DNA from: an uncultured Verrucomicrobiae bacterium
Lineage (GTDB): Bacteria > Verrucomicrobiota > Verrucomicrobiia > Chthoniobacterales > UBA10450
Length of the DNA stretch: 64,000 nt
Reading direction: 5' to 3'
NCBI GenBank assembly: GCA_963726745.1
Contig: CAVSDR010000002.1
Span: 224,001-288,000 of the forward strand
The stretch's first letter is position 1. Each line of letters starts with the position of its first letter. The notes under the pieces are model-generated. The model searched no databases and had not been told where the DNA came from. It saw only the letters and a list, made by a program, of their open reading frames with translations. The position numbers were made by a program, and so were the translations under genes. Positions 4,301 through 64,000 of this stretch are shown one piece after another.

Positions 4301-4707
4301 GGAAAAGGATGAAGGAGCCGCGGCGTGGGCGGAGCGCAGCTAAGGTTGCTGGCGCAAACGCGGGCGCGAGCGTGCGAGTGATGTCGGCCACGCGCGAGAT
4401 GGCTCGCAGTCATTCGCATTGATTGGAGGTGCCAGAGCCGCAAACGCAGCTCAAAGAGTTTTATGGCGGAGCGATCTGAAAGGCGCATCGCGCAGCGGCC
4501 ATACCATAATTGACTCGGACAATGTTTTCCTGCTCCGACCAGCGACTTCAGGGTCAGGTTTCGCGCTTTCTAGTTCAGGCAAAAAAACGACCGAAGCTAA
4601 CGAAAGCAGCGGTGGAATCGTCGTGCAACGAGCTATCACCTCCGCGGTGAGCCGACGCGGTGACCGCTTTCTCGCAGAAGAGCTTAGGCCAAGCCTGGCA
4701 GCTGAAG

Positions 4708-5460
4708 CTATTCCACGTCGAGGCGCGCGAGAGCACGTCGGCGGAGCCAGCGATGTGTCGGAGTGATCACGGCGAGGGAGTAATAGACCCAGCCGCTCCA
4801 TCCGATCAGCGCCGGTGGCAGGGTCAAGGCAAAGACCAGCGAGACCAAGCCCACGCACGTGGGCAGCGCCCAGCCGCGTGCTTCCTGCCAGGCCATGAGT
4901 TGTTCGCGGTGATTCAAGCGCAGGGCCATGCGCAAACGCCATGCGTGGAGATTCAACAGGGCGATCTCGAGCGCGATCGCGGTGAAGCCGAGCGCAAACG
5001 CAGCGAAAAGCTCCCGTGCCTGCCCGATCGACTCGATGAGGAGCGGTTGCCCGACGCGCCCGCCGGAGAGCGGAAAAAACATCGCACCGAAGACGACCTT
5101 CAGCGGGTAAACATAGATCAGCATGGTGAAGATCATCGCCCAGCTGATCATGACCGAGGGTCCGTCCTCGAGGCCGAAACGCCGGCTCCAGAGCCAGTGG
5201 CCGCGCCAGAAAAGCGCGAGGACAAAAACGCTCGCCGCGAAAGCCGGCACATTGTTAAAGGCGGCAAGGAGCGACTTCACGTTCGTGGGCGGGTCGCCGG
5301 CGGCGATCACGAGCGTGGTAATAGCGAAGGCAAAGGTCGCATCGACGAAGGTCTCGAGCCGCGTCATCTCCATCCCGCGCAGGCGGAAGCCGCGCAGCCG
5401 TGGCAGCGCATCCAGGTCTGCCGGCAGCGCGGAGGCGATTTCTTCCTCACGGGAGTTCAC
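4708..5460 (-). CDS. TMEM175/DUF1211-family membrane protein
   Basis: TRLETFVDATFAFAITTLVI motif and multiple TM helices. Confidence 0.75.
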   Translation of the reverse strand: MNSREEEIASALPADLDALPRLRGFRLRGMEMTRLETFVDATFAFAITTLVIAAGDPPTNVKSLLAAFNNVPAFAASVFVLALFWRGHWLWSRRFGLEDGPSVMISWAMIFTMLIYVYPLKVVFGAMFFPLSGGRVGQPLLIESIGQARELFAAFALGFTAIALEIALLNLHAWRLRMALRLNHREQLMAWQEARGWALPTCVGLVSLVFALTLPPALIGWSGWVYYSLAVITPTHRWLRRRALARLDVE

Positions 5461-5661
5461 GTGCGGGAGGATAGCGCGGTGCGATGCGGTGTCAGTCCCA
5501 GAATGTCGCGGGCCGCAGTGCTACCTTAGCCTTGGCTGCGGGCCGTTCGTCGGAGGGTTGGCGAGGGCGCCCGGGCGAGCTAACGAAAGGATCACTCCCT
5601 CGCTCGGCCATGCGCGCTGTCGGCCGCGTGACTTCCTGGAAGAAGCTGAATAGCTTCCGTC

Positions 5662-6093
5662 GTGGCTCCAATGGGTGCGGCGGCATTTGCAATCAAAGCG
5701 GAGCTACCGGAGGTGCGGGCGCGGACCTTCGTCTTCCGTCACCAAAAGACGATGTATGGCGGCAAACAGATCAAGCCGGGCGACACCATCTTCCTCTTCG
5801 CGAGCGAGAACGAAGGCGGGCAAGGTTTGATCGCCTGCGGGGTGGTTACTTCTGCCCAGGTGAGTGCCCTCCAACCAGGAGTCGCCCGGCAAACTCCGCG
5901 GGTCAGCCTTGCGGTGCGAAGAACGGGGCTGGCAAAACGGCCCCTTGGACGCCGCGAGCTCAAGCAGTTCACCGATTGGGCCGATGGACGACCTGAGACC
6001 GAGCTCAACTTCAAACTCTATCGTCAGGCCACCAACAAGATCGCGGGTATCTCGGAGCAGGCGACGCGGTTCTTGCGTGGATTTTTCAGCTGA
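5662..6093 (+). CDS. Conserved hypothetical protein, possibly EVE/PUA-like
   Basis: IKPGDTIFLF...GLIACGVV pattern; coding-like composition. Confidence 0.55.
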   Translation: MAPMGAAAFAIKAELPEVRARTFVFRHQKTMYGGKQIKPGDTIFLFASENEGGQGLIACGVVTSAQVSALQPGVARQTPRVSLAVRRTGLAKRPLGRRELKQFTDWADGRPETELNFKLYRQATNKIAGISEQATRFLRGFFS

Positions 6094-6150
6094 ACAATCA
6101 GAGAAACGAAACCTGACCGCGAGTGAGCTAGCCGAAGCGAAGCAGCGCCA

Positions 6151-6280
6151 GTGGTCGCAGCCGCGCCCGTGGCGGGGAAATTAGACATCAACTTGGCGAC
6201 GCCTTCCGAGCTCGTGCGGCTCCCGGGGATTGGGCCGGCGATGGTCGGCCGCATCGTCGCCGCGCGCCCTTCCGCGAGCC
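6151..6280 (+). pseudogene. ComEA-like helix-hairpin-helix fragment
   Basis: LDINLATPSELVRLPGIGPAMVGRIVAARP, cut off by the end of the convergent mtgA; second HhH absent. Confidence 0.6.
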
Positions 6281-6285
6281 GCTGT

Positions 6286-7026
6286 TCAGCGCAGCATCTT
6301 CTCCGGGAACGGCGCGCTTTGCTCGCGGAAGAGGATACGCTGCTGGCGCTGCCGCAGGGCCGGCCCGGGCTTTGCCGGATTCCAGCCTTTCGGGTTCGGC
6401 AGGACCGCGGCGAGGAGGGCGGATTGATCTCTCGTTAGGCCGCGCGCGTTTACCCCAAAGTAATGCTGCGCCCCTGCTTCCACTCCATAGATTCCGGGAC
6501 CCATCTCGATCACGTTCGCGTAAAGCTCGAGGATGCGCCGCTTCGGCAGGAGCAGTTCCATCCAGACGGTGTAGTAGGATTCGAGCCCTTTCCGGATCCA
6601 GGAGCGCCCTTGCCAAAGGAAAAGCGAGCGCGCGCACTGCATCGTGATCGTGGAGACGCCGCGCACGGGCTTGCCCGTCCGGTCCGATTTCTTCCGCGCG
6701 GCCTCGAGTTCCTTCCAGTCAAAGCCAGCGTGCTGGAAGAAGCGTTGATCTTCCGAGACCCAAAGATGTTTCAGGAACATCGTGGGCACCTGGGGCAGGT
6801 CGACCCAATGATAACGCAGCGGCGCAGTCGCGTGCACTTGCTCGAGCAACATCGGGAGCGTCCGCGGCGGGTCCAGAAACCGAACCAGCAAAACTTCCAG
6901 CACCGGAAGAGACAGCAAGATGGCCAGCGCGATCAGCAGCCAGCGCCCGCGATGGAGTTTAGCCGACTGCTTCTTCAAAGCGCGGGGCTTCCTCTTTTTC
7001 TCAACGGCGGGCATTCGGGTGGCCAC
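6286..7026 (-). CDS. mtgA: Monofunctional peptidoglycan transglycosylase
   Basis: GT51 motifs EDQRFFQH, GVSTITMQCAR, RKGLE, KRRILELYAN. Confidence 0.9.
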   Translation of the reverse strand: MATRMPAVEKKRKPRALKKQSAKLHRGRWLLIALAILLSLPVLEVLLVRFLDPPRTLPMLLEQVHATAPLRYHWVDLPQVPTMFLKHLWVSEDQRFFQHAGFDWKELEAARKKSDRTGKPVRGVSTITMQCARSLFLWQGRSWIRKGLESYYTVWMELLLPKRRILELYANVIEMGPGIYGVEAGAQHYFGVNARGLTRDQSALLAAVLPNPKGWNPAKPGPALRQRQQRILFREQSAPFPEKMLR

Positions 7027-7068
7027 CCTCGATGAGTTGGCTGGAAAAGGGAACGCGCTTTCGAAAAA

Positions 7069-7629
7069 TCAGCGCCCTCGCGGCGGCGTTTTCTTCCGCG
7101 CCGCCGGCGGGAGCGACTGCGGGTAAAGCTCGGCGAAACTCTTCGGGCCGCGCGGCACTTCCGGTGCCGCCGCGGGCGCCGGCGGCAGGACGGTATCCAG
7201 CTGGCCCAGCGCGGAAGGCGGAAGCGTCCCGAGCTTGCCGGCCGGTTCGGCGGTGGGCCCCGCTGCGAGATGGACGTTCATCGCCCGCCGAAGCGCGCTC
7301 TCGCTCTCCTCGGCCAGCAAGGACGCGAAAAGCCCAAGCGGAAGCTGCTGCATTTCCGCTCGCGCCGTGATCACGGTGTAGCCGGCGTGCGAATCAAATC
7401 CTTCCGAAGCCTGGAAAAGCAGCGCGCCCCGGCTTCTTTGGAATTCCAGCACGCGATGCAGCAGCGCCTTGATGATCCCGCCGTCGCCGGTCGAGCCGTA
7501 GCCATGGATGACGGCAAATTTCCGCAGGGCCGTCGGCAAGCGGACGATCTTCCGGTAGTCGGCCGCGAAGCGGACCATGGCCTCGGACGCGGTCAAGCCG
7601 TGATAATCGAGTTCGCGCAACCTCCGCAT
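7069..7629 (-). CDS. Smr-domain protein
   Basis: LDYHGLT and VIHGYGS motifs. Confidence 0.7.
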   Translation of the reverse strand: MRRLRELDYHGLTASEAMVRFAADYRKIVRLPTALRKFAVIHGYGSTGDGGIIKALLHRVLEFQRSRGALLFQASEGFDSHAGYTVITARAEMQQLPLGLFASLLAEESESALRRAMNVHLAAGPTAEPAGKLGTLPPSALGQLDTVLPPAPAAAPEVPRGPKSFAELYPQSLPPAARKKTPPRGR

Positions 7630-7732
7630 CCCCGGCGAATAAACAAAACCGCCGATGCCCTCAAGCGAAGAACTCCTCCCGGCGTTCCGTGAGCGACCGC
7701 GAGGGGCGCAGGTGCTAAGGTCTCCCGAGGTC

Positions 7733-9040
7733 ATGCAACGCCGCGTCCGCTTTTCGATCTTCGCCCTGCTGCTCGTGGCTGGAATAGCCGGCTACCTGTT
7801 CTGGCCGCCGGCGGCGCGCGCGCCCGTTTCTCTCGCGGTCGACGAATCTCTTGCGGCGTCGCCGATTCCGCCCGCGGCGGCAAGCGACCCCGATCCGGCG
7901 TCCTCGCCGCCGGCGACGAGCGCGGGTGCTTCGCGCGATGCTCTGCTCGATTCGCTGCGTGCGAAATTAGCCTCGGGAAACATGGCCCGCGGGGAAGCGA
8001 TCCTGACCTTTCGCGATGCAGAGGCGCGGGCGCGTTTCGCGCAGCGCGCGGCGAGCTTCGGGCTGGAAGTGATCGCGGAAATTCCGCAGCTCGATTCCTT
8101 GCGCGTGCGTTACCGCGAGCTGGAAGGCTTGCGCGATGCCATTGCCGCCGGCGGCGGCGAATTGGCAAACGTCGAGGGCAACCTCTGGTTAGGCATTCCG
8201 GGAACGACGCCTGTCGCCGACCCGAACAACCAAGGCGGCCGTGCGCCTTTTGGCCGAAGCACGCTCGAGGCGATCAACGCCGTGGGCGACCGAACTTCGT
8301 GGGGCGGCCGCGTGACCGTGGCGGTGCTCGACACCGGCATTCTCGCGCATCCGACGTTTGGTTCCGGGCAGATTACGCACTTGGATTTGGTGAATGACGG
8401 ACTCGGATTCAATAGCCACGGGACGAGCGTGGCCTCGATCATCGGCGGGCAAAATCCGCAGGCGCCCGGAGTGGCGCCGGGCGCGAGCATTCTCGATATC
8501 CGGGTGGCCGACGCCGAAGGTTACGCGGTTGGCTCCAGTCTCGCGCAGGGGATCGTGACTGCGGTCGATCGCGGCGCCCAGGTGATCAACGTGAGCCTGG
8601 GCGGCTACGGTGGCAGCGCCTTGCTGGAACAAGCGGTCGGCTATGCTTTGCAACGCGGCGTGGTCGTGGTGGCGGCCGCAGGGAACGACGCCTACGGGCA
8701 ACTCGCGATTCCCGCAGCCTATCCGGGCGTGCTCAGCGTCGGCAGCGTCGATGCCAACAACCGGCAGGCTTACTTTTCCAATAGCGGCGCCGGGCTCGCG
8801 CTGGCGGCGCCGGGAGTGGGGGTGATCTCCGCATGGGAGACGGACAAGATCGCGCTCGTAAGCGGCACGTCGCAATCCTCCGCGCTGGTCACAGGCGCGG
8901 TTGCCACTTACCTCTCCTGGGGCGTTTCGGCGAATCAGGTGGGCCGGCAATTGCAAATCGATGCGCGACCGGCATTCAACGATGCGGGCGCGGCCACCGG
9001 CGTGGGCATTCTCACGATCAAGCCGCCGACTGCTCGATGA
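7733..9040 (+). CDS. Membrane-anchored S8 (subtilisin-like) serine peptidase
   Basis: VAVLDTG, HGTSVA, AAAGN, SGTSQS. Confidence 0.9.
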   Translation: MQRRVRFSIFALLLVAGIAGYLFWPPAARAPVSLAVDESLAASPIPPAAASDPDPASSPPATSAGASRDALLDSLRAKLASGNMARGEAILTFRDAEARARFAQRAASFGLEVIAEIPQLDSLRVRYRELEGLRDAIAAGGGELANVEGNLWLGIPGTTPVADPNNQGGRAPFGRSTLEAINAVGDRTSWGGRVTVAVLDTGILAHPTFGSGQITHLDLVNDGLGFNSHGTSVASIIGGQNPQAPGVAPGASILDIRVADAEGYAVGSSLAQGIVTAVDRGAQVINVSLGGYGGSALLEQAVGYALQRGVVVVAAAGNDAYGQLAIPAAYPGVLSVGSVDANNRQAYFSNSGAGLALAAPGVGVISAWETDKIALVSGTSQSSALVTGAVATYLSWGVSANQVGRQLQIDARPAFNDAGAATGVGILTIKPPTAR

Positions 9041-9110
9041 TTTTATTTTAGGCTGCGTGCCCTGCAGCCTCGGCGGTCCTCGAGCGCCGCTACACCTATC
9101 AACCCGCCGG

Positions 9111-10166
9111 CTACTTCAGAAAATCGTTTAACGCCTCGCGCGTGATCCGCCAGCTGCTCCCGATCTTTTTTCCCTTCAAGTCGCCCGCGTCGAGGCTCTG
9201 CTGGACATCGGCCTCGCTCACGCCGAGCGCTTCGGCCGCCTGCGCCGGGCTCAGCAGCTCGGGCAAGCCGGTGGCGCCGGCGGGCGCCGCCGCGGCGGTA
9301 GACGGCGAGATGGATTGGGCGGAGCCTTGCTGTTGGATGATTTGCTGGGCCATGGCGATGCCGACCGCCATCTCGGTGGCCACGCCGCCAGCGCTGCCGC
9401 CTTTCTCCATGCCTTGGGCCATCTGGAACTTCACGTAATCGTTCAAGTTGCCGACTGCGGCCATGCTCGAGCGTTTGTCGATCGCTTGCTCGACTTCCGG
9501 CGGGACGCTCACGTTCTCGAGGATGAAGCTCGGCAGCTCGATCCCGTATTTCGCGCGGATGATCGGGTTGATGATCGGGAGCAACGCTTCGCCGACTTCC
9601 TGGTAACGCGAGGCGACGTCGAGCACCGGGACTTTCGCGGTCGCGAGCGCGTCGCTGAAGATGCTGACAATGCGCGAGCGCATGGTGTCGGCAAATTCTT
9701 CGAGCCGGAAATTCTGGTCGGAGCCGGCCACTTCCTTGAGCATCAATTTCGGATCGACCACGCGGAAATCGTAGGTCCCGAAAGCGCGCACGCGCACGAT
9801 CCCGAAGTCCTGGTCGCGGAGCATGATCGGGTTCGAGGTGCCCCACTTATTCCCGGTAAAGAGCCGCGTGGTGACGTAGTAGACGTCCGCTTTGAAAGGG
9901 GACTCGAAGCCATATTTCCACGACTTCAGATTCGTGAGGATCGGGATGTTATCGGTCGTGAGGGTGTGTTTTCCCGGGCCGAAAGTGTCGCCAAATTCCC
10001 CCAGGTAAACGAACTGCGCGACCTGCGACTCGCGCACGATGAGCTGGGCGCCGCGCTTGATCTCGGCGTCGTTATCCGGGAAGCGATAGGAGATGGTGTC
10101 GCGCGAGTCATCGGTCCACTCGATGATGTCGATCGTCTGTCCGCGGAGGTAATTCATCAGGCCCAT
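9111..10166 (-). CDS. SPFH (YdjI-like) protein with C-terminal excisionase-type HTH
   Basis: IDIIEW, LIVRESQVA, KWGTSNP, RAFGTY; C-terminal LLSPAQAAEALGVSE...LKGKKIGSSWRI. Confidence 0.85.
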   Translation of the reverse strand: MGLMNYLRGQTIDIIEWTDDSRDTISYRFPDNDAEIKRGAQLIVRESQVAQFVYLGEFGDTFGPGKHTLTTDNIPILTNLKSWKYGFESPFKADVYYVTTRLFTGNKWGTSNPIMLRDQDFGIVRVRAFGTYDFRVVDPKLMLKEVAGSDQNFRLEEFADTMRSRIVSIFSDALATAKVPVLDVASRYQEVGEALLPIINPIIRAKYGIELPSFILENVSVPPEVEQAIDKRSSMAAVGNLNDYVKFQMAQGMEKGGSAGGVATEMAVGIAMAQQIIQQQGSAQSISPSTAAAAPAGATGLPELLSPAQAAEALGVSEADVQQSLDAGDLKGKKIGSSWRITREALNDFLK

Positions 10167-10264
10167 GGTGGTTTTCCTTTCAGAGAAATGAGGGGTTTTG
10201 CTGGCGCACAGCTTAGCCTTTTCCGGCGGAGCGCAATGCCGATTTCGTGACGCGCCCGGAGCGC

Positions 10265-10780
10265 TCAGGCTGGTTCGTCTTCGTAATAATGCTCGCGCAC
10301 TTTGCCGGCCCAGCGTTGGAAGACCTGGCGCAGGGCCGCCTTGGCCGCGCCGGCGATTTCCCCTTCCGGGATCGGGTGCACGAAGACGTCGGAGACGCCG
10401 TGATCGAAGACTCCGCCGCTGATGCTTTCCTCCCGGAAGACGAGGATCGGCACGCGCAGCCCAAAGAGGATGCCGGACTCGAGATGATTCCACGGGGTGG
10501 GGAACGACATCGGAACGCTGAAGCTTTTCTCCGCGGGAGTGCCCGGTTTTACCAGCCCGCTGGCGGCGCGGAATTGCTCGAAGCCAAGGATGACGCCGCC
10601 GAAGCAATGCCGCGCGATCAAGAGCACTTCGCGCAGCGGGAGCTCGGTGGGATAATCGGAACGGCCAAGGGCGCGCGGTTCGAGGTCGTTGTCCTCGAGT
10701 TGCTGGATGATGACGCTGCGCGCAGCCTCTTGCCCCGGCGAAAGGCTCGTCGGCGACGAAACGAACACGGGAATTTTCAT
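10265..10780 (-). CDS. TIR/NDT-like fold hypothetical protein
   Basis: IPVFVSSP first strand, TPWNHLESG helix with Glu, PILVF strand. Confidence 0.6.
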   Translation of the reverse strand: MKIPVFVSSPTSLSPGQEAARSVIIQQLEDNDLEPRALGRSDYPTELPLREVLLIARHCFGGVILGFEQFRAASGLVKPGTPAEKSFSVPMSFPTPWNHLESGILFGLRVPILVFREESISGGVFDHGVSDVFVHPIPEGEIAGAAKAALRQVFQRWAGKVREHYYEDEPA

Positions 10781-10851
10781 GGGGGAAACTCCATGAAGGG
10801 CGATCCCTCCCGCGGCGGCAAGCCGATTTTAGACAGCGAGATGTACTCTCG

Positions 10852-12109
10852 CTAGCCCTGCACGAGCGCGCGCACGCCGGCGAGGAGGCGATCGACTTCC
10901 TCTTCGGTGGTGTAACAGGCGCAGCCGGCGCGAAGGACGCCGTGGGGCGCAAGGCCCAGGCGGTCGATCACCGTCATGGCGTAGAAGTGTCCATCGGAAG
11001 CGAAGACACCTTGCCGGACCAAGGCGCGGGCGACCTGGGCCGCCGTGTGACCCTGCACGGTGAACGCGATCGTCGGCGTGCGGGCCGCGCCCGGTGCCGG
11101 GCCGAAAGTGCGGACGCCGGGGATTTCCTGGAGCCCGGTCCACATCCGGGCGAACAACTCCGAGCCGCGGCGATGGAGTTCGCCGAAGGCCGACTCTAAT
11201 TTTGCGCGCCGCGTCGCGCCGTGGCCTAACGAGGCCAGGAAGTCGACTGCGGCGGCCGCGCCGGCCATGCTCTCGAAGCTTTGCGTCCCGGTCTCCACGC
11301 GGTCCGGCGCCTCGTCAGGGGCGGGGATGAGCTTCGGGAAATCAACTTTAGCCAGCAACTCGTGCCGGCCGAATAGAATCCCGGTGTGCGGCCCGTAGAA
11401 CTTGTAGGAAGAACAGGCGAGGAAGTCGCACTCAAGCGCGCGCACATCGACCAGGGTGTGCGGCGCGTAATGCACCGCATCAACGAAGGCGAGCGCGCCG
11501 ACGCTGTGTGCCAGGTCGGCCGCGCGGCGGACGTCGCTGATCGTGCCGATGGCGTTCGAGGCCGCGCCGACAGCGACCAATTTCGTGCGGGCGTTCACCT
11601 GCTGCTCGAAGTGTTCCCAATCGAGCTGCCCGGTCTCCGGGATCGAGGCGGACAACGCGGATGGTCACGCCGCGCTCTTTCTCGAGCGCGCGCCAGGGGG
11701 CGACGTTTGCGTGGTGATCGAGCTCCGTGATCACGATCTCGTCGCCTGCGCCCCAACCGCGCCCGAGCGCCCGGGCAAGATGAAAGGTGAGCGAGGTCAT
11801 GTTTTGCCCGAAGGCAATTTCATTCGCTTGGGCGTTGAGGAAATCCGCCAGCGTGGCGCGCGCGCGCAGGACGAGCGCGTCGGTCTCCGCGCTCGTGGGG
11901 AAGGACCAATGCGTGTTCGCATTGTGATGGAAAAGGTAATCGGTCATCGCTTCCGCGACCACACGCGGCACCTGGGTGCCGCCGGGCCCGTCGAAATAGG
12001 CGACCGGATGTCCGGCATGTTCGCGCTCGAGCGCCGGAAACGCGGCCCGGATTTGAGCGACGGAAACGGGGGCGGCCTGCGGTGCGGTGGCGGGAGCGAG
12101 CGTGGTCAT
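10852..12109 (-). CDS. Cysteine desulfurase-like class V aminotransferase; frameshift near 11650
   Basis: YFDGPGGTQVP, LDHHANVAPW, DAVHYAPH, SSYKFYGPH. Confidence 0.9.
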
Positions 12110-12216
12110 GGAGCAGATGCTCCGCGCGGGCCGGCGCGATCGCAAACGCCGCTTTGGCCGCCGGATAATGCGATGGCCAGTCGCGCCTCGCCTTGCTACG
12201 ATCGGCTTCCCCTCCC

Positions 12217-13707: not shown

Positions 13708-13823
13708 GCGCGAAGCTATTCCCTCCCGCAGCAAGAGACAGCGAGATGAACCCGGGACAAAAACGGTGTTCAGCGCCGAGGCATTGTGCTTAAGCTCGAC
13801 CTTCCCTCGAATTCCACTCCCGC

Positions 13824-51789: not shown

Positions 51790-53440
<1,651 letters not shown>

Positions 53441-53444
<4 letters not shown>

Positions 53445-54727: not shown

Positions 54728-54775
54728 CCGCCGGAGCGTAGGGGTTGCGCGCGAAAAGGGAAGCGCGCGCGTGCG

Positions 54776-56865: not shown

Positions 56866-57740
56866 ACGCGATAGCCGGTGCGAAAGAAGAGCCGATAGAT
56901 CGCGCCGCCGCAGAGGCCGCCGACGATCGGCGCGACAAGGTAAACCGTGAGCCAGCCGAGCCCATTGGCGGTGAAGGGCACGCCGCGCCAGCCAGCAAGC
57001 GAAGAGAAGAGGCGCGGCGCGAGGTCGCGCGCGGGATTGAGGCAGGCCATGGTCATCGGGCCGAGAAGCGAGATCAGGATCGTGACCGTGAGGCCGATGG
57101 TCGCGGCCGTGAGGAGTTGCGGGCGATTGGCGTTGCGCTCGTCGGTGACGCAAAAGATCACCAGCAGGAGAATGGCGGTGCCGACGACCTCGGCGGCGAA
57201 GGCGGCGCCGGGCGAGAGAATCGCGCGTGTCTCCGGCGTGAGTGCCTTGCCGCCGGGATTCGGGAAAAATTCGCCGAAGATCATGGCAGTGGCTTCGCTC
57301 CCGGCCTCGCCGCGGATGATGTTGTGCTTCGTTTCGTAGCTACGAATGGCGCCGCCGTAGAGCGCGAAGACCATGGCCGCAGCGGCGAAAGCGCCGACTA
57401 ATTGCACGCCGATATAAGGCAGGACGAGCCGCGCGGGGAAACGCGCGAAGGCGGCCGCAGCGATCGTAACCGCGGGGTTGAGATGCGCGCTGCTGAGCGA
57501 GCCGGTGAGATAAATCGCAGTCGCCACGCCCAACCCCCAGACGATCGCGACCTGAAAGACGCCCACCTGCGCGCCGGTCGTGACCGCGGCCGCGCCGCAA
57601 CCAAGACCGAAGAAGACGAGCAGGAAGGTGCCGAAGAACTCGCCGATGACCCATTTTGGAATGGGCGTCGCAGCGAGCTCGATCTCGGCCTCGGCGTGCG
57701 GCGGCGGCTCCGGTCGCGTCGCGCGAATGAACTCGGCCAT
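56862..57740 (-). CDS. MIP channel, aquaglyceroporin type
   Basis: HLNPAVT and LNPARD. Confidence 0.9.
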   Translation of the reverse strand: MAEFIRATRPEPPPHAEAEIELAATPIPKWVIGEFFGTFLLVFFGLGCGAAAVTTGAQVGVFQVAIVWGLGVATAIYLTGSLSSAHLNPAVTIAAAAFARFPARLVLPYIGVQLVGAFAAAAMVFALYGGAIRSYETKHNIIRGEAGSEATAMIFGEFFPNPGGKALTPETRAILSPGAAFAAEVVGTAILLLVIFCVTDERNANRPQLLTAATIGLTVTILISLLGPMTMACLNPARDLAPRLFSSLAGWRGVPFTANGLGWLTVYLVAPIVGGLCGGAIYRLFFRTGYRV

Positions 57741-57753
57741 GTTGCCGGCTAAA

Positions 57754-58914
57754 TTAGCAGCAGCCGCCGGCGTCGCAGCACGAGCTCGCGTCCGTGGTGA
57801 CGGAATAATCCTGGCCCTTGGTCTCGCGCGGATGCCGGAGCGCGGTGCGGGTGCAGTCAAAGGGCTGGGCCTCCGCGAGCGGGATTTCGGTCATCGGCTC
57901 GATGAACTCGAACGACTGCGCGTAAGGCGCCTTGCGGTAGAGATTGAAGGTCTTGTCGCACACCGCGTAGCGCACGCCGCGCTCCATCCGGTGATTGTCG
58001 TCATCGAGCACTTCTCGGAAGGGACCACGATAAACGACCGCCTGGTTGCGCTCGAAACAGGGGCCCTGCTTGCCCTTGAAGGCTTCGATCGTGACCGAGC
58101 GAAACTCGATGCCTTCGACCGTTTGCCACGGCTGCGCGTCGCGCTTGAGAATCTGGATGCCGTAGAAGCCGGCCTCGCTGAACGCCTGGAGGAAGCCTTC
58201 CTCGGTGAGCGCGCCGGAGATGCAGCCGCTCCAAAGTTCTGCATCCTCCTGCAGACGCTCGGGCACTTCTTCGTCGGAAACGATATCGGAGATGACCGCG
58301 CGGCCGCCGCGGCGGAGGACGCGGAAGATTTCCTCGAAGAGCTGCCGCTTGGCCTTGGCCTCGACAAGATTGAGCACGCAGTTCGAGACGACCACATCGA
58401 CCGACTCCGTCGCGACCAGCGGAAATTTCACGCGCAATTCCTGCGCGAGTTCATCGGCGCGCAGAAAAGAAGCCGCGTCGGTGATGGGCGAGTTCTTGAG
58501 CTCGTCGTCTAATTTATCGAGATCGAGCGCGAGGTCCTGGATGCGGCCTTTGCGAAACTCGACATTGGCGTAGCCGAGGCGCTCGGCCACGATCGGCGCG
58601 TTCCGCCGCGCGACGCTGAGCATCTCATCGGTCATGTCGACCCCAATCACTTTGCCGGAAGAGCCGACCACTTGCGCGGCGATGAAGCAGATTTTCCCGG
58701 TGCCGCTGCCGAGATCGAGCACGGTTTCGCCGGCCTGCAGATACTTGCTCGGGTCGCCGCAGCCGTAATCGCGCTCGATCACTTCGGCGGGAATGATCTT
58801 GAGGAACTGCGGGTCGTAGTCGACCGGGCAGCAAAGCTTCGCTTCTGCGGCTTGCGCGCCGGCGGCGTAACGTTCGCGGACGGCGCTTTCGGGATTCAAT
58901 TTGGGGGTGCTCAT
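57754..58914 (-). CDS. arsM: ArsM-like SAM-dependent methyltransferase
   Basis: LCCP, YGCGDP, LDLGSGTG, GVDMTDEML, SNCVLNL, WSGCISGAL, terminal CC. Confidence 0.8.
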   Translation of the reverse strand: MSTPKLNPESAVRERYAAGAQAAEAKLCCPVDYDPQFLKIIPAEVIERDYGCGDPSKYLQAGETVLDLGSGTGKICFIAAQVVGSSGKVIGVDMTDEMLSVARRNAPIVAERLGYANVEFRKGRIQDLALDLDKLDDELKNSPITDAASFLRADELAQELRVKFPLVATESVDVVVSNCVLNLVEAKAKRQLFEEIFRVLRRGGRAVISDIVSDEEVPERLQEDAELWSGCISGALTEEGFLQAFSEAGFYGIQILKRDAQPWQTVEGIEFRSVTIEAFKGKQGPCFERNQAVVYRGPFREVLDDDNHRMERGVRYAVCDKTFNLYRKAPYAQSFEFIEPMTEIPLAEAQPFDCTRTALRHPRETKGQDYSVTTDASSCCDAGGCC

Positions 58915-59061
58915 AACTTTTTCGGCGCAGGCGCTCGCCTGTCCTAGCGGCTATCCGTCGTTGATACAAAAACGGATGCAACCGGGCGATAAGAGTTTTC
59001 ATCGCGCCGGGCGGCGCTGGAGGATTGCGCACCGCAGTTCGAGCGCTACTCTGCCGGGCAT

Positions 59062-59295
59062 ATGAACGCTCCTGACCCCGCTCCCACCACGCGCGCCCGC
59101 TCGATTTCGCCCGAAGCCTTGATCGGGACCGGGATCACGATCGCGATGGTTGGATTGCTTTTCCTCCTGCTCGGCTGGGCGCAATACATGCGCCTGGTGC
59201 ACGACGCGGCCATGATCCTCGGCGCGTTGGGCGCGGCGCTCGCGCTCCTCGGCGTGATCATCTGGATCAGCGGCGCAGCGAAGCAGCGGAATTAG
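59062..59295 (+). CDS. Small two-TM protein
   Basis: Two hydrophobic helices. Confidence 0.6.
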   Translation: MNAPDPAPTTRARSISPEALIGTGITIAMVGLLFLLLGWAQYMRLVHDAAMILGALGAALALLGVIIWISGAAKQRN

Positions 59296-59299
59296 CCAG

Positions 59300-60895
59300 C
59301 TAGCTGGGGGCGCCAAGTTTGTCGGTGCGCGCTTTCACGATTGCGCGGACGAGCTCGGCTGGATCGACTGGCTTGGTCAGGTATTGATCGAAGCCGCACT
59401 CGAGGGCGCGGGCGCGATCCTGCGCGCTGGCATAAGCGGTCAGGGCAATGATGGGCAGCAGCTGGCCGTTGTGTTGCTCGTGCGTGCGGAGCGTGCGCAC
59501 AAAGGCGTAGCCATCCACGCCCGGCATGGCGACATCGCTCACGATCACATCGGGATGCACCTCGGGCATGAGCGCGAGGGCATCGGCCACGGACTCGGCC
59601 ACGGTCACGGAGGCGCCGCATTTCGTCAGCGTGAGGGCGACGATCTCCCGCACACTCGCTTCGTCGTCCACCACCATCACGTGCACGCCGCGCAGGCAAT
59701 TTTCCGGGAAGTTCCGCTCCGTTGCCGCGAGCTCGCGGAGCGGTTTTGCCTGCCGGGTGTCGAGCGCCACGATCGGCAACAGGACGGTGAAAGTGCTGCC
59801 TCTTCCTTCGCCTTCGCTTGCGACTTCGATTTGCCCGCCATGCATCATGACGAGCTGATGCGCGATCGTGAGCCCAAGTCCGAGTCCGCCGTGATGGCGC
59901 GTGGAACTGCTGTCGCCCTGGCGGAAACGCTCGAAAATATGCGGCAATAAATCCGGGCCGATCCCTTTGCCGGTATCGGTCACCTGAATGACGGCGTGGG
60001 CGCGTTCGCGCACTGCGCGCAAGCGCACATGGCCGCCGCGCGGGGTGAACTTGACCGCGTTCGTGAGAAGATTCAGCACGACCTGCTGGAGGCGCATGGC
60101 GTCGGCCTCGACCAGGAGGTGATCCTCGTCGCCGAGCGCGATCTCGAGGCTCACGCCTTTCAAATCGGCCGAAGGACGAACCGCTTCGAGCGCCTCGCGG
60201 ACGACACTGATGAGGTCGAGCACGGTGCGGTCGAGGGTGAGCTTGTGATTGATGATGCGGGTAATATCGAGCACGTCCTCGATCAACCGCGCCTGGGACT
60301 CGGCGTTGCGCATGATCGAGTTGACCGCCTCCACTCGCTCCTCTTCGCTGAGGACGTTTTCCTGCATCAGGCGCGTCCAGCCGAAGACGGCATTCAAAGG
60401 CGTGCGCAGCTCGTGTGAGATCATGCCGAGGAACTGATCCTTGTGGCGGTTCTCGCGGCGCATGTCGTCGCGCGCCTGGCGGAGCGCTTCCGCGGCCAGC
60501 TTTTGCTCGTGGATATCGGTGCAGGTGCCGAACCAGTTCACGATCTCGCCCGCGTCATTCCGGAAAGGAAGCGAGCGTCCGAGGAACCAGCGATACTCGC
60601 CATCGCTCGCGCGCCGGAGGCGGAACTCGATTTCGTAGGGCAGGTCGGTGCGCATGGCTTCGTCCCAGGCGCTGTTGGCGCGCTCGCGATCTTCCGGATG
60701 GAGGAGATGATTCCACGCATCTTTCCCCGAGGTTTCCAGGGTGAGCCCGGTGTATTCGGTCCAGCGGCGATTATAAAACTCGTGCGAGCCATCGGGCCGC
60801 GCGACCCAGACGATTTGCGGCAGGTTGTCCGCCAGGGTGCGCAGGATCTCGAGTTCGCGCGGGAAGAGTTCAGCCTCGGTGGGCAGGTCGTTCAT
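59300..60895 (-). CDS. PAS hybrid histidine kinase/receiver
   Basis: HPEDR PAS/PAC, SHELRTPL, NAVKFT, GLGLGL, receiver domain. Confidence 0.92.
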   Translation of the reverse strand: MNDLPTEAELFPRELEILRTLADNLPQIVWVARPDGSHEFYNRRWTEYTGLTLETSGKDAWNHLLHPEDRERANSAWDEAMRTDLPYEIEFRLRRASDGEYRWFLGRSLPFRNDAGEIVNWFGTCTDIHEQKLAAEALRQARDDMRRENRHKDQFLGMISHELRTPLNAVFGWTRLMQENVLSEEERVEAVNSIMRNAESQARLIEDVLDITRIINHKLTLDRTVLDLISVVREALEAVRPSADLKGVSLEIALGDEDHLLVEADAMRLQQVVLNLLTNAVKFTPRGGHVRLRAVRERAHAVIQVTDTGKGIGPDLLPHIFERFRQGDSSSTRHHGGLGLGLTIAHQLVMMHGGQIEVASEGEGRGSTFTVLLPIVALDTRQAKPLRELAATERNFPENCLRGVHVMVVDDEASVREIVALTLTKCGASVTVAESVADALALMPEVHPDVIVSDVAMPGVDGYAFVRTLRTHEQHNGQLLPIIALTAYASAQDRARALECGFDQYLTKPVDPAELVRAIVKARTDKLGAPS

Positions 60896-60981
60896 GGAGG
60901 GCGCGAGGGACACTTCGTCTTTTTGGGAGCACGAATTGTTCTTAAAAACCGCTCCGCCTGTCCACCGGGAAAGTGCGCCAA

Positions 60982-61548
60982 TCAATCCGCGCCGGAGACC
61001 TCGAGGGCATAACGGCGCCGGATGCTGGAGCCAAGTGCCCGAATATCGGCGCCGTAGACATGCACCGAGACGGCCGTCTCCTGGCCGGCATTGGCTACCC
61101 GATGAATGTCGCCCGGCGGGATCAGCGCGGCGACCGATCCGCCAGGATTTACCTGGTGGCCTCCGGGAAGCAGATGGAGGGTGCCATTTTCCCCAGCGAG
61201 AGTGTAAACCGTCTCGGACTCCTCGCCGCGATGCACTCCGACGACACACCAGGAAACGTGATCGTGGATCGGCGTTGACTGTCCCGGCAGCCAGACCAGG
61301 GCGACGACCGAAAAACTGCCGTCCTCTTCCACGTGGAGAACGTGCTGGCAATAATCGCAGGTCGTGGGCGCAAGTTCCGCCAGCGCGAGAAAATCCTCGC
61401 GACCCAGCAGCGGTCGAAGCAGGTCGGCCACCATTGTTCCGACCGCGTGGTCATCCAGCCCGCCCTGCACGGCGGACCGCACGTCTTCCACAAATTTGCG
61501 GAAGGCCGGCGTTTTTTCGCTGCGCGTTGCTTCGATCGTGACAGCCAT
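60982..61548 (-). CDS. Cysteine dioxygenase-family cupin
   Basis: TPIHDH, DIHRV, SVHVY. Confidence 0.85.
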   Translation of the reverse strand: MAVTIEATRSEKTPAFRKFVEDVRSAVQGGLDDHAVGTMVADLLRPLLGREDFLALAELAPTTCDYCQHVLHVEEDGSFSVVALVWLPGQSTPIHDHVSWCVVGVHRGEESETVYTLAGENGTLHLLPGGHQVNPGGSVAALIPPGDIHRVANAGQETAVSVHVYGADIRALGSSIRRRYALEVSGAD

Positions 61549-61571
61549 TTGCTTTCTTCGACTCCCGAAAG

Positions 61572-61617
61572 TTCACTACCTCCGCCGCCGACGTTTGTCG
61601 ACGGCGGAGAAGTGAAA
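61572..61617. terminator. Long intergenic hairpin, probable terminator
   Basis: TTCACT..CTCCGCCGCCGAC-GTTT-GTCGACGGCGGAG.AGTGAA. Confidence 0.55.
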
Positions 61618-61640
61618 GGCCGCGCGCGTGAAAGGGCTGG

Positions 61641-63740
61641 CTATTTTGTCTTCACGATGGTGGCCGAGGCCGTGCGGGTCAGCGCAGGCGAGCCGCCGGT
61701 GCCGGTGACGGTGAAGTTGTAAGTGCCTTTCGCGGTCGAGCTGGCCACGTTCACGCTCAAGGTTGAAGACGTGGTCGCCGGGTTCGGGCTGAACGAAGCA
61801 GTCACGCCCGGAGGCAGCGCCGAAACGCTCAAAGTAACCGGCGAATTGAAGCCATTACTCTGCGTAATCTGCACCGTGTAGGTGACCGTGCCGCCGCTGC
61901 GATTCACGCTGCGCGAGGAGGGGCTGATGGTGAGCGTGTAATTAGGTGCCGGCGTTGGTGTCGGCGTCGCACTTGGCGTTGCCGTCGGAGTCGGCGTGGC
62001 GCTTGGCGTTGCGGTCGGAGTGGGAGTCGGAGTCGGACTGCCGCTCGCGATCTTGAAACTGCCGATGCGGGTGCGCCAGTTGTACGTCCCCGTGGTCGCG
62101 TAGTATTCGCTCGTGAACCAGAAGGTGCTGTCGTCTACCGGATCGACCGTGAGCGAGGCATAGTCGCCCCAGCGGTTGCCGGTGCCGCTCTGGCTGCCGG
62201 TGCCGTCGTAAAGGTGCGTCTCGCCCTGCGTGAGGGTGTTCAAGGGATCATTGGCAAGACGTGCGTTGTAGCGCAGCTGCGGGTTGATCGATGAACTCGA
62301 AGCGCTGTAGGCGAGGGCAATGTTTCCCTGGCCATCCATGGCCGTGCTCGGGATCCAACGCCAGGTCGTGTCCGGTTGGTAGGTGCTCTCCTGGTAGACC
62401 TGCACCGGGCCCGCGGTCACGCCGCGAAGCTCGAACCAGCGAATGCCGGCCACGCCGTTCGCGCTCACCGTGTAGGCGCCCACGACCGCTTCATGATCGC
62501 CGAAGTTGCGATAGGCCAGGCGGAACATGAGACGATCGCCGCTGGCATCGAGATTATTCGCCGAGGTCACGCCAGCTTGCGGCACGCAGGCACGCGTGCT
62601 CGGGCAGAGCATGGTGAAGCCAGCGGCCGGCGGATTGGCAAAGGTGGTGAAGGTGGAGTTCGCCGGCGTGGTGAAGTCGGCGTGGAAATGATACGTCGTG
62701 TAGTTCGGGCTGGTCGATTGGCCTGGGAAACCGACGAACGTCGCGGGCGCACCGCTCGGCGGCAGCGTGGGACCATCGAGATCGGCCGGCAGGAACGGAT
62801 CGACCGTCCCGCCGAGCGGGGCCTTCGGACTAACGAAGGTAGCCGGCTGGTTAACCAGCATCTTGGCACGATCGAAAGCAAACGCCTGCGGCCCGAGATA
62901 GGAAGTGCCGGCGGCGTTGAAGACGTTCATGCTCATATAATAGCCGTCCGGCCACACGCTCAGGTGCGGGTAATCGTAGAAGTTTGAGCCGAGATGGAAG
63001 CCGTAGCGCGCGTAGGTCCCGGTTGCGTCCGCCGTCGTCGAGATGGCCACGCACTCGTCGGTGATCGCACCGTTTGAGGTTGCCTTGGCAAATTGGCTGA
63101 TCAGCCAGCGATCGGCCAGCCGGTCATACAGCACCACCGGATCCCCCGAGCCGCCGGTCTCGCAAGCGCCGCCAAAGCCGGTCCAAATCGAGGAGATGCT
63201 CTTCGGCCCGAGCACGGAAGCGCCCGTCACTTTATCGAAGACTTGATAGCCTTCGTTGACGATCTGGACGTACTGCGTTTTGCCCACGGCGCCGTTCGTA
63301 TCCGGCGGCGCGCAGCTGCAACCAACGCCAGGGAAGGGGATGCCATCGAAATTTTGAATTGGCGCGCTCAAGCTCGGCGCGAGGGCGTTGAGCACTGAGG
63401 CGCGCCCGACCTGCTCGTGCTGAATCACCGGGTCGGCCACGTCTTCGTGGCGCCGCGGGATTTGCGGGTTCTCATTCGCTTCGTGCTCCTCTTTATAAGA
63501 GCGGCGATTTGGATTCTCCGGGATGTCCCGCGCTGCCGGCGAGATGTCATTCTTGTAGGAAACCCCCACGTCCATCGGCGGACTCTCTCGTCGCTGGCTG
63601 GCCTCCTGGGCCAGGGCGTGGCTGGGGCCGAAGACGCCGAGACCGAGAAGCGCAAGCAGGCAGGCGCAACCCGCGAGCAACAAGGCGGCGAGCACGCGAA
63701 GATGGAAGAAGGCAGAACGCGACGAGGTTTTCTTTTTCAT
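61641..63740 (-). CDS. Large secreted protein with Pro/Thr linker and C-terminal Ig-like domain
   Basis: Signal peptide; PPDTNGAVG, RWGDY; (PT)n linker at about 61950-62040. Confidence 0.85.
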   Translation of the reverse strand: MKKKTSSRSAFFHLRVLAALLLAGCACLLALLGLGVFGPSHALAQEASQRRESPPMDVGVSYKNDISPAARDIPENPNRRSYKEEHEANENPQIPRRHEDVADPVIQHEQVGRASVLNALAPSLSAPIQNFDGIPFPGVGCSCAPPDTNGAVGKTQYVQIVNEGYQVFDKVTGASVLGPKSISSIWTGFGGACETGGSGDPVVLYDRLADRWLISQFAKATSNGAITDECVAISTTADATGTYARYGFHLGSNFYDYPHLSVWPDGYYMSMNVFNAAGTSYLGPQAFAFDRAKMLVNQPATFVSPKAPLGGTVDPFLPADLDGPTLPPSGAPATFVGFPGQSTSPNYTTYHFHADFTTPANSTFTTFANPPAAGFTMLCPSTRACVPQAGVTSANNLDASGDRLMFRLAYRNFGDHEAVVGAYTVSANGVAGIRWFELRGVTAGPVQVYQESTYQPDTTWRWIPSTAMDGQGNIALAYSASSSSINPQLRYNARLANDPLNTLTQGETHLYDGTGSQSGTGNRWGDYASLTVDPVDDSTFWFTSEYYATTGTYNWRTRIGSFKIASGSPTPTPTPTATPSATPTPTATPSATPTPTPAPNYTLTISPSSRSVNRSGGTVTYTVQITQSNGFNSPVTLSVSALPPGVTASFSPNPATTSSTLSVNVASSTAKGTYNFTVTGTGGSPALTRTASATIVKTK

Positions 63741-63844
63741 AATAGAGAGAGAACTGGCTCCCGTTTCTACGCCCGTTTCTTACGTGAGTTGAGTTATTTT
63801 TCCGTAATCCTCTCCGCCCTCCGGCCGCGCGCGTAGAGTAGTGC

Positions 63845-64000
63845 ATGAATCCCGCTCTCCTCTGGCGTGCCACCCGCGCTTACTCGCTCCCGGCGAGTGT
63901 CGTTCCAGTCTCGTTAGGCACGGTGCTGGCCGCGCGCGGCTACGGGGCGCTCGGCGGCGGGGCCTTCCACGCCGGCACTTTTGCGCTCACTCTTCTGGGC
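63845..64000 (+). CDS. menA: UbiA-family prenyltransferase (MenA-like), truncated by the window edge
   Basis: MNPALLWRATRAYSLPASVVPVSLG. Confidence 0.6.
   Translation, partial: MNPALLWRATRAYSLPASVVPVSLGTVLAARGYGALGGGAFHAGTFALTLLG

What the first reader, a model, noticed from the sequence alone, without database searches (positions are those of the whole stretch)
4596..63918. Highly iterated non-palindromic octamer CCTAACGA on both strands
Seen, counted by eye: CCTAACGA at 11225, 16217, 16966, 17651, 20313, 27219, 27974, 39974, 41420, 43454, 43690, 45764, 51318, 51785, 55251; TCGTTAGG at 6432, 13701, 18048, 18643, 21523, 34192, 36199, 38821, 39257, 46013, 63911 (26 exact). About 10 more carry the CTAACGA core (4596, 5579, 22060, 23860, 32595, 35367, 40761, 49533, 53419, 62829). 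A rough independent-base estimate at ~65% GC gives only 1-2 expected. Copies sit inside genes in different frames and force rare CTA/TTA/CCT codons. I saw none in the lower-GC islets at 1-4.5 kb and 28.0-32.5 kb. Established: DUS/USS, HIP1, Chi and KOPS are comparable signals, but Chi and KOPS are strand-polarised and HIP1 is palindromic. Inference: an undescribed lineage-specific self-DNA signal (uptake sequence, recombination or nucleoid-protein site, or modification target).
Basis: partly seen in the sequence, partly recalled or inferred. Interest (0 to 1): 0.8.

Follow-up and report, generated by a model that had tools for sequence, protein, structure and literature searches.

The report
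Integron-core word written genome-wide
This soil bacterium, most of its family and an unrelated cultured soil species carry one short DNA word, spelled like the crossover point of integron gene cassettes, hundreds to thousands of times inside ordinary genes, most likely because a still unknown protein favours incoming DNA that carries it.

Summary
Confirmed. All 26 octamers and 10 cores are present. The word is GCCTAACGA(G): 1,514 octamers genome-wide; 1,114 in genes against 85-133 in codon shuffles. The host is a soil Chthoniobacterales. Its family carries 4-1,355 copies/Mb; 119 Verrucomicrobiota genomes outside it carry at most 48 GCCTAACG each. Sites are substitutions, often change amino acids, show no replication polarity, and avoid each other within about 300 bp (109 pairs vs 255 expected; weak in two relatives). 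The word is the crossover end of the family's attC sites and of 9 of 12 attI sites read. Cultured Gemmatirosa (another phylum) iterates GCCTAACG likewise. A second, independent word (SAWNKYGYYGGCTAWTTY, about 4,500 sites) marks this lineage. Best reading (0.5): an uptake-signal-like word spread by molecular drive; no reader was found and uptake is untested. The scan noted this word before, in this genome and others; the attC and Gemmatimonadota leads came from those notes. No paper found.

The parts
4597..4603 (+). word 1 core CTAACGA, intergenic
5580..5586 (+). word 1 core, intergenic
6432..6439 (-). word 1 octamer in the monofunctional transglycosylase gene
11225..11232 (+). word 1 octamer, in a gene
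13701..13708 (-). word 1 octamer supplying the TAG stop of gene 12217-13707
16217..16224 (+). word 1 octamer, in an MFS transporter gene
16966..16973 (+). word 1 octamer, in a gene
17651..17658 (+). word 1 octamer whose CTAA gives the overlapping stops (TAA and TAG) of two convergent genes
18048..18055 (-). word 1 octamer, intergenic
18643..18650 (-). word 1 octamer, in a gene
20313..20320 (+). word 1 octamer at a stop codon
21523..21530 (-). word 1 octamer, in a gene
22060..22066 (-). word 1 core, intergenic
23860..23866 (-). word 1 core supplying the TAA stop of gene 23863-25956
27219..27226 (+). word 1 octamer, in a peptide transporter gene
27974..27981 (+). word 1 octamer, intergenic
32595..32601 (-). 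word 1 core, in a gene
34192..34199 (-). word 1 octamer, intergenic by my gene calls
35368..35374 (+). word 1 core, in the 2-oxoacid oxidoreductase alpha gene
36199..36206 (-). word 1 octamer, intergenic by my gene calls
38821..38828 (-). word 1 octamer in proA
39257..39264 (-). word 1 octamer in proA
39974..39981 (+). word 1 octamer in proB
40761..40767 (-). word 1 core in an aminotransferase gene
41420..41427 (+). word 1 octamer near the end of the aminotransferase gene
43454..43461 (+). word 1 octamer giving the overlapping stops of two convergent genes (DAHP synthase, phosphatase)
43690..43697 (+). word 1 octamer, in a gene
45764..45771 (+). word 1 octamer, in a gene
46013..46020 (-). word 1 octamer, in a gene
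49533..49539 (-). word 1 core in the phosphofructokinase gene; the same place carries it in 11 of 81 ortholog alignments
51318..51325 (+). word 1 octamer, intergenic by my gene calls
51785..51792 (+). word 1 octamer giving the overlapping stops of two convergent genes
53420..53426 (+). word 1 core overlapping a gene end
55251..55258 (+). word 1 octamer in a radical SAM gene
62830..62836 (+). word 1 core, in a gene
63911..63918 (-). word 1 octamer, in a gene
6170..61850 (.). word 2 (SAWNKYGYYGGCTAWTTY): 43 sites with posterior over 0.9, both strands, cores near 6181, 9692, 9992, 10829, 13734, 14739, 15486, 16534, 17114, 17836, 21129, 23594, 24489, 29479, 30510, 34607, 36042, 37302, 37871, 38436, 38529, 39143, 39181, 41176, 44037, 47053, 48047, 48339, 49922, 51838, 53384, 53814, 53838, 54946, 55291, 55932, 57398, 57749, 58509, 59292, 61349, 61641, 61834
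6127..6290 (+). remnant of the helix-hairpin-helix end of a comEA-like (nuclease plus HhH) gene; the nuclease half lies on contig C4 at 17230-17874; relatives carry it whole
1..4500 (.). stretch free of both words, part of an accessory-looking region reaching upstream of the window

Best explanation
GCCTAACGA(G) is the binding site of a sequence-specific, orientation-independent protein that favours incoming DNA fragments carrying at least one copy, most likely at uptake in natural transformation. Homologous fragments with the word then replace chromosomal alleles more often than those without, so the word is written into genes base by base (molecular drive, as for DUS/USS). One copy per fragment of a few hundred bases is enough, so copies avoid each other at that range. 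A second reader does the same for word 2. SHOWN: enrichment, substitution origin, protein cost, strand symmetry, spacing in this genome, identity with attC and attI ends, the same core in a second phylum, independence of word 2. INFERRED: that a protein reads it, that the step is uptake, the fragment length, and the direction of the link with integrons.
For: Enrichment: 1,514 vs 38-54 (Markov 2-3); 1,114 in genes vs 85-133 with protein and codon pools fixed. Proteome reshaped as reported for USS/DUS (passages of PMC2817400): PNE and SLG rank 3rd and 4th of all tripeptides, and 63-64% of PN[ED] and SLG use the word; 313 of 1,396 CTA and 665 of 2,906 TTA codons sit in it. Substitution origin: 263 of 265 site alignments to relatives are ungapped, 193 of 263 differ in peptide, 43 are identical (110 distinct sites, 22 shared). 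No replication polarity. One-off variants depleted, 586 vs 951 (the null is partly inflated by the word's own codons). Self-avoidance at 10-200 bp: 109 vs 255 here, 28 vs 46 in G028, 13 vs 27 in pooled loci, 18 vs 34 in Gemmatirosa; 39 of 40 control 7-mers are at 0.99 or above. A toy saturating model with 400-bp fragments gives a similar curve and an additive one gives none; a second USS within 100 bp adds no uptake (passages of PMC7811141). Lower in low-GC windows and in the most conserved genes (0.39 vs 0.49-0.58/kb). ComEC, DprA, 18 pilin-type N-termini and 3 secretin matches are present. Density varies 300-fold in the family and other words come and go, which suits a dispensable exchange function.
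Against: No reader was found and uptake was not measured. ComEC is in 58 of 61 genomes of the order, with or without the word, so it does not discriminate. The comEA-like gene is split in this genome. The same core in Gemmatirosa is not what a kin tag predicts. Close inverted pairs, common for DUS, are scarce (4 and 4 within 50 bp for the two inverted orientations). Self-avoidance is weak in G033 (66 vs 83) and G102 (209 vs 233, with an excess at 10-50 bp). Genes with orthologs in my samples are no richer than all genes (0.53 vs 0.54/kb). Any saturable function with a range near 400 bp would give the same spacing curve.
Confidence: 0.5

Rival explanations
1. The word is the site of an intracellular architectural or nucleoid protein; weak selection for evenly spread sites acts in very large soil populations.
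For: Strand symmetry, self-avoidance, presence on 1-Mb plasmids of Gemmatirosa, and a small excess of pairs one helical turn apart (5 at 11 bp here, 7 in G033). A small basic winged-helix-like protein has two copies in most family genomes and one in most others.
Against: Density spans 4-1,355/Mb and some family members lack the word. Gaps reach 25 kb. It does not explain the match to the integron crossover or the lineage-private extra words. The winged-helix protein occurs in 61 of 61 genomes and its copy number does not follow density.
Confidence: 0.17
2. The integron integrase or an integron accessory factor acts at these sites directly; the word is a dispersed attI-like core kept by integron recombination itself.
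For: The word is the attC R' end (16 of 16 attC ends found in this genome read RYCTAACGAG, with a pattern that required CTAAC[GA]A) and the attI crossover in 9 of 12 family attI sites read. attI is recombined as double-stranded DNA (passages of PMC8946536). Two phyla converge on this core.
Against: This genome has no intI match, only XerC/D-like genes (95% complete), yet shows no decay halo. intI occurs in both high- and low-density relatives (17 of 36). Family f5 has the same attC ends without the genome-wide word. Sites form no attC-like inverted pairs, arise without indels and would put insertion targets inside core genes.
Confidence: 0.13
3. HIP1-like: a solitary methyltransferase marks the word, and methyl-directed repair or methylation-dependent transformation multiplies it.
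For: A solitary beta-class methyltransferase (C3:981251) is found in 33 of 36 family genomes and 2 of 24 others. HIP1 is read by two methylases and is proposed to aid uptake (abstract of PMC13756078).
Against: The enzyme is also in four family genomes with little or no word (G081, G093, G179, G089) and in G057, an outgroup without it. Its target is unknown. The word is a non-palindromic 9-10-mer with graded flanks, depletion of variants covers many substitution types, and the enzyme was not found on the Gemmatirosa plasmids (chromosome not searched).
Confidence: 0.08
4. Chi-like signal for the AddAB helicase-nuclease, protecting self and donor DNA.
For: AddAB-like genes are present (C3:775709-781854); the word is short and non-palindromic.
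Against: No leading-strand bias (495:563) where GGGNAGGG shows 174:52; the most strand-skewed 8-mers are other, G-rich words.
Confidence: 0.07
5. Artefact, codon bias or a repeat element.
For: The assembly has frameshifts; about 16 copies belong to real attC repeats.
Against: About ten-fold over a codon-aware null; flanks are unrelated; present in many independent assemblies and a cultured isolate.
Confidence: 0.01

Closest known systems
USS of Pasteurellaceae (core AAGTGCGGT) and DUS of Neisseriaceae (GCCGTCTGAA); cores as printed in PMC2817400 (passages)
   Same: 9-10-base non-palindromic word, 1,000-4,000 copies, both strands equally, mostly in genes, enriches the tripeptides it encodes, scarce in foreign-looking DNA and very conserved genes, arises in place, competence genes present.
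   Different: Unrelated sequence; uptake and receptor not shown; close inverted terminator pairs scarce; core shared with another phylum; identical to the integron crossover; a second independent word in the same genome.
HIP1 (GCGATCGC) of cyanobacteria (abstract of PMC13756078)
   Same: Highly iterated octamer-sized word, spread through genes, described as quasi-periodic, lineage-wide, with a conserved solitary methyltransferase in the lineage.
   Different: Not a palindrome; the family methyltransferase does not follow word density; methylation unknown.
Integron attC R' end and attI crossover (GTTRRRY core; PMC8946536 passages)
   Same: The reverse complement CTCGTTAGGC is the family's attC 3' end and the crossover of 9 of 12 attI read.
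   Different: The roughly 1,900 dispersed copies have no partner box, hairpin or cassette, lie inside core genes, and the genome has no intI match.
Chi and KOPS (properties recalled)
   Same: Short non-palindromic over-represented words; AddAB-like genes present.
   Different: No strand polarity, while GGGNAGGG in the same genome is polarised.
Highly repeated motif of Lactococcus lactis (recalled from Mrazek et al. 2002, not read)
   Same: Word 2 is likewise a long degenerate dispersed motif of unknown reader.
   Different: Different sequence and phylum; not compared with tools.

Membership tests
DUS/USS uptake sequences | Raises uptake of DNA that carries it | not testable with these tools
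   Needs an uptake assay; Gemmatirosa KBS708 is cultured.
DUS/USS uptake sequences | Hundreds to thousands of copies above a codon-aware null | tested here: met
   1,114 vs 85-133 in genes.
DUS/USS uptake sequences | [quoted passage not shown] | tested here: met
   495:563 by GC-skew-defined strand; control GGGNAGGG 174:52.
DUS/USS uptake sequences | Encoded tripeptides enriched; sites formed in place without indels | tested here: met
   PNE 249 vs 96, SLG 765 vs 468; 263 of 265 ungapped.
DUS/USS uptake sequences | Scarce in recently acquired DNA, rich in the core | tested here: inconclusive
   0.19 vs 0.77/kb by GC class, but orthologous genes 0.53 vs all genes 0.54/kb; no close strains were available.
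DUS/USS uptake sequences | Competence machinery present and intact | tested here: inconclusive
   ComEC, DprA, pilin-type genes and secretins present; comEA-like gene split here, whole in relatives.
DUS/USS uptake sequences | Known receptor (ComP-like pilin or PilQ specificity) | not tested
   No ComP family search was run; the pilin-type proteins listed were not strongly basic.
DUS/USS uptake sequences | Excess of close inverted pairs used as terminators | tested here: not met
   4 and 4 inverted neighbours within 50 bp among 2,018 gaps; close pairs depleted overall.
DUS/USS uptake sequences | Specific to one clade (kin tag) | tested here: not met
   Confined to one family among Verrucomicrobiota searched but GCCTAACG is 778 vs 20 on a Gemmatirosa plasmid. 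Word 2 is clade-limited.
HIP1-type iterated palindromes | Palindromic | tested here: not met
   Sequence.
HIP1-type iterated palindromes | Cognate methyltransferase whose presence follows the word | tested here: not met
   Family-wide enzyme also in 4 low-density family genomes and an outgroup; target unknown.
Chi | Leading-strand bias | tested here: not met
Chi | Attenuates AddAB/RecBCD | not testable with these tools
   AddAB-like genes present.
attC/attI sites | R box matching GTTRRRY | tested here: met
attC/attI sites | Partner boxes and hairpin (attC) or position beside intI (attI) | tested here: not met
   Only about 16 of some 1,900 sites are true attC ends; inverted pairs at 51-150 bp are depleted; no intI match.

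The most novel reading that the evidence does not exclude
Cassette fishing: a DNA-import or DNA-protecting protein evolved to bind the integron core GTTAGGC, a sequence that gene cassettes of many soil bacteria share, so the cell selectively takes cassettes out of the soil DNA pool. Lineage-private second words (word 2 here, AAGATCGACAW in other Chthoniobacterales) come from additional readers and act as kin dialects on top.
Probability: 0.2. Interest if true: 0.9.

Novelty: new variant of a known kind. Interest (0 to 1): 0.74.

Why it matters
Sequence-specific DNA uptake is established only for Neisseriaceae and Pasteurellaceae (PMC7811141 passages) and proposed for cyanobacterial HIP1. A comparable signal in abundant soil bacteria of two phyla would be a third system, and its identity with the integron crossover would tie natural transformation to cassette traffic at the level of sequence (transformation feeds chromosomal integrons: abstract of PMC12614218). 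The word has reshaped the proteome, so whatever reads it is a strong force. One carrier, Gemmatirosa kalamazoonensis KBS708, is cultured, so the question can be tested at the bench. Two independent words in one genome give an internal control that DUS/USS genomes lack.

Tried and rejected
Replication polarity: none. Repeat or transposon origin: flanks unrelated, no indels. Special link to stop codons: about 14% of octamers, like 12% of all CTAA, so a by-product. Cassette scars at gene ends: the R'' form CCTAACCA is not enriched (35 vs 30). attC older than the family: the f5 integrases nest inside the family's IntI clade (100/100, midpoint root, one tree search, no clade test), so f5 arrays are not independent evidence of age. 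Solitary methyltransferase: family marker, does not follow density; nearest solved relatives are distant; homolog names generic. Winged-helix paralog pair: order-wide. Top words of G002 and L017 are tandem heptamer arrays, not dispersed words. The third word is not in attC sites of the genomes that carry it (0 of 11 attC matches) and not enriched in the 60 sampled relatives. No dif match with recalled patterns. Viral scan for the attC end: 42 loci, the word-rich ones being cassette arrays. Metagenome scan: 121 stretches, 80 listed and examined, 14 word-rich; none closely matched this genome's proteins and I could not name their taxa. Sequencing runs: one small-share soil run, too patchy to compare sites with flanks. 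Maughan et al. 2010 was not held and is cited only through PMC7811141. The reversed-word control of the genome tool is a loose null for these TA-containing words. No fold or complex prediction was run, as no candidate reader justified one. No supplements were read.

Full report
Observation. The 26 octamers and 10 extra cores are in the window as listed, against 0.75-1.4 expected at Markov orders 0-3. The window is G000:C2:224001-288000 of a 3.41-Mb, 7-contig genome. The best relatives of its phosphofructokinase are named Chthoniobacterales or Verrucomicrobia soil assemblies at up to 85% identity. That the family (f1) is the one holding Ca. Udaeobacter is my inference; no call names it.

The word in the genome. 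CCTAACGA occurs 1,514 times, on all 7 contigs at 0.35-0.63/kb, against 38-54 (orders 2-3) and 150 (order 4). An EM fit gives about 1,900 sites with profile G.90 C.78 C T A A C G.92 A G.70. With my own gene calls (3,318 genes) about three quarters lie in coding DNA in the four frames without a stop, 14% form stop codons and 12% are intergenic. Keeping proteins and codon pools fixed gives 85-133 copies in five shuffles against 1,114 seen. The word accounts for 313 of 1,396 CTA and 665 of 2,906 TTA codons, for 489 of 765 SLG and 244 of 387 PN[ED] peptides, and PNE and SLG are the 3rd and 4th most enriched tripeptides. This is the proteome effect described for USS and DUS (passages of PMC2817400).

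How sites arise and are kept. In 779 ortholog alignments (347 genes), 263 of 265 site alignments have no gap nearby, 193 of 263 differ in peptide and 43 are identical in the relative; these cover 110 distinct sites, 22 shared. One-base variants at the invariant positions are fewer than expected (586 vs 951 in genes; ratio 0.33-0.93 in eight genomes or samples), the opposite of a decaying signal, though the null is partly inflated by the word's own codons. There is no polarity: 495 with and 563 against the GC-skew strand over 2.38 Mb, where GGGNAGGG gives 174 and 52. Density rises with GC from 0.19 to 0.77/kb and is lowest in the most conserved genes, but genes with orthologs are no richer than all genes.

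Spacing. Copies avoid each other within about 300 bp: 109 pairs at 10-200 bp against 255 expected, on all 7 contigs. Of 40 control 7-mers 39 score 0.99 or more; the one at 0.45 was not identified and probably overlaps the word. The hole is clear in G028 (28 vs 46) and pooled word-rich loci (13 vs 27), weak in G033 (66 vs 83) and G102 (209 vs 233, excess at 10-50 bp). A few pairs sit 10-13 bp apart in all orientations. A toy model in which one site per 400-bp fragment is enough gives a similar curve and an additive model gives none. This shows saturation, not uptake; for USS a second copy within 100 bp adds nothing (passages of PMC7811141).

Distribution. Among 60 relatives the octamer numbers 176-2,840 in 36 family genomes and 6-77 in 24 genomes of 15 other families. 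Across 150 family genomes GCCTAACGA runs from 13 (G081) to 4,336 (G102), 4-1,355/Mb, structured by genus; 6 of 150 are under 20/Mb by my reading of the table. None of 119 Verrucomicrobiota genomes outside the family exceeds 48 GCCTAACG, against 1,346 here. The tallies include unpublished genomes (G001, G008, G030, G035, G068, G167); no conclusion on word 1 rests on them alone. Kin are not independent, so I ran no test across them.

A second and a third word. The next enriched k-mers resolve into SAWNKYGYYGGCTAWTTY, about 4,500 sites (2,393 at posterior over 0.95); the strict form is 480 in genes against 15-23 in shuffles. It is strand-symmetric (206:216), ungapped in 229 of 235 alignments, self-avoiding (1,556 vs 2,274) and independent of word 1 (978 vs 952). 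It shares the GSCTAA core in register: 12% of word 1 sites here also fit its upstream part, against 1.2% in pooled relatives. The strict pattern is 622 here, 290, 169, 129, 92 and 72 in five genus mates, and near background in most others; outside the genus only unpublished G068 shows it (118), so the cross-genus claim rests on that genome. Other Chthoniobacterales loci carry a third dispersed word, AAGATCGACAW (46 ATCGACA in 19.9 kb of L057). I saw neither word in the earlier notes shown to me.

The integron link. attC sites in families f1 and f5 read RYCTAACCA...GCTGATCTTGTTCTCGTTAGRY, so the word is the R' end across the crossover. This genome has an array of 14 such sites (C6:736.5-745 kb) and two single ones, but no intI match. 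The attC type was found in 2 of 261 phylum genomes, both f1; that sample held no f5 genome. Of 32 intI loci, 20 were from f1; 12 had a readable attI-like core and 9 of these read CTC|GTTAGRY, in three integrase subclades; 0 of 2 f5 sites do, and the f5 integrases nest inside the f1 clade. A chance 8-base match to the conserved parts of attC is roughly 0.2% by my estimate, a few percent allowing for other elements one might have compared.

A second phylum. Other notes reported CGTTAGGC in Gemmatimonadaceae. On plasmid 1 of the cultured Gemmatirosa kalamazoonensis KBS708, GCCTAACG occurs 778 times in 1.1 Mb against 20 for the reversed word. In 400 kb from its two large plasmids it is the top 8-mer (269 vs 12), profile YGCCTAACG, with the same spacing hole (18 vs 34). 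Its chromosome could not be reached. So two distant soil lineages iterate the same integron-core word with different flanks.

ComEC, DprA, 18 pilin-type N-termini, 3 secretin matches and AddAB-like genes are present; ComEC is in 58 of 61 genomes of the order. The nuclease-plus-HhH comEA-like gene is whole in relatives and split here, its tail lying in the window at 6127-6290 and each half next to accessory-looking DNA; insertion, rearrangement or mis-assembly cannot be told apart. A solitary methyltransferase marks the family (33 of 36 vs 2 of 24) but is also in members with little or no word. A winged-helix-like pair is order-wide. No reader was identified, and the proteome was not annotated in full.

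Mechanism. I put 0.5 on a saturable, donor-favouring step in transformation, most likely uptake, with molecular drive (the drive model as summarised in PMC1939737, PMC2397512 and PMC7811141 passages). Convergence in two phyla favours the second or a shared, transferred reader; transformation is known to feed chromosomal integrons (abstract of PMC12614218). Rivals: nucleoid protein 0.17, integrase or accessory factor acting directly 0.13, methylation 0.08, Chi 0.07. It works like DUS/USS but is not filed as a member: uptake is untested and two features (terminator pairs, clade specificity) were not met.

Novelty. Whole-word searches for CCTAACGA, TCGTTAGG, GCCTAACG and CGTTAGGC found 0 papers; GTTAGGC or GCCTAAC together with two of the other terms, 0; topic searches gave nothing on such a word in these phyla (listings). 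The library lacks most subscription papers and I read no supplements. The scan itself has noted word 1 before, twice in this genome and in other genomes; those notes are leads, not support.

Noticed in passing
G000 genome-wide; window 6170-61850: Second iterated word SAWNKYGYYGGCTAWTTY, about 4,500 sites, self-avoiding, independent of word 1, patchy in the genus.
   Followed up: yes
L057:1-19858; also L008, L036, L039, L044, L045, L046: Third dispersed word AAGATCGACAW, up to about 2 per kb, in other Chthoniobacterales.
   Followed up: partly
window 6127-6290 and G000:C4:17230-17874: Nuclease-plus-HhH comEA-like gene split into two pieces on two contigs, each beside accessory-looking DNA; whole (about 310-350 aa open frames) in relatives.
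   Followed up: partly
G000:C6:736500-745000 (L442): Cassette array with 14 attC sites and no integrase match in the genome; single attC sites at C3:633 kb and C4:151 kb.
   Followed up: partly
L110, L112, L113, L292-L295: A clade of seven family integron integrases with no attI or cassette found upstream, some beside housekeeping genes: empty integrons or domesticated enzymes.
   Followed up: no
L194:752-1540 (G000:C3:981251-982042): Solitary beta-class DNA methyltransferase conserved across the family at 67-78% identity, rare in other families; target unknown. GTAC (0.16) and CTAG (0.28) are strongly avoided in this genome, GTAC also in outgroup samples.
   Followed up: partly
L440:148-450 and L441:295-597: Small basic protein with E2F/DP-like winged-helix features, in 61 of 61 genomes of the order and duplicated in most family genomes; one copy lies near a xer gene.
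   Followed up: partly
window 17651, 43454, 51785: The CTAA of the word supplies TAA and TAG stops of two convergent genes at once; 28 such octamers genome-wide.
   Followed up: yes
G000, G033, G102 samples: Small excess of word pairs 10-13 bp apart in all orientations inside the general exclusion zone.
   Followed up: partly
table: The long (750-1,200 aa open frame) HHH_3 protein seen in ten outgroup genomes, probably Tex, was not found in any family genome searched.
   Followed up: no
window 1-1077 and upstream: Lower-GC stretch with a broken MzaB/MutL-like ATPase gene, possibly a defence remnant.
   Followed up: no
window 53441-58914: Arsenic cluster: ArsM-like methyltransferase, aquaporin-like channel, phosphate transporter and ArsS radical SAM gene.
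   Followed up: no
window 33327-36070, 38283-39332; G000:C3:778693-781854: Several genes appear frameshifted (2-oxoacid oxidoreductase alpha, proA, addA), as expected of long-read assembly errors.
   Followed up: no
L090, L017: Tandem heptamer arrays (CTTCCTA, AAGCACC) in relatives mimic iterated words in k-mer counts.
   Followed up: yes
L272, L273, L262: Two viral-collection contigs carry attC sites of the family's type, one as an array of eight.
   Followed up: no
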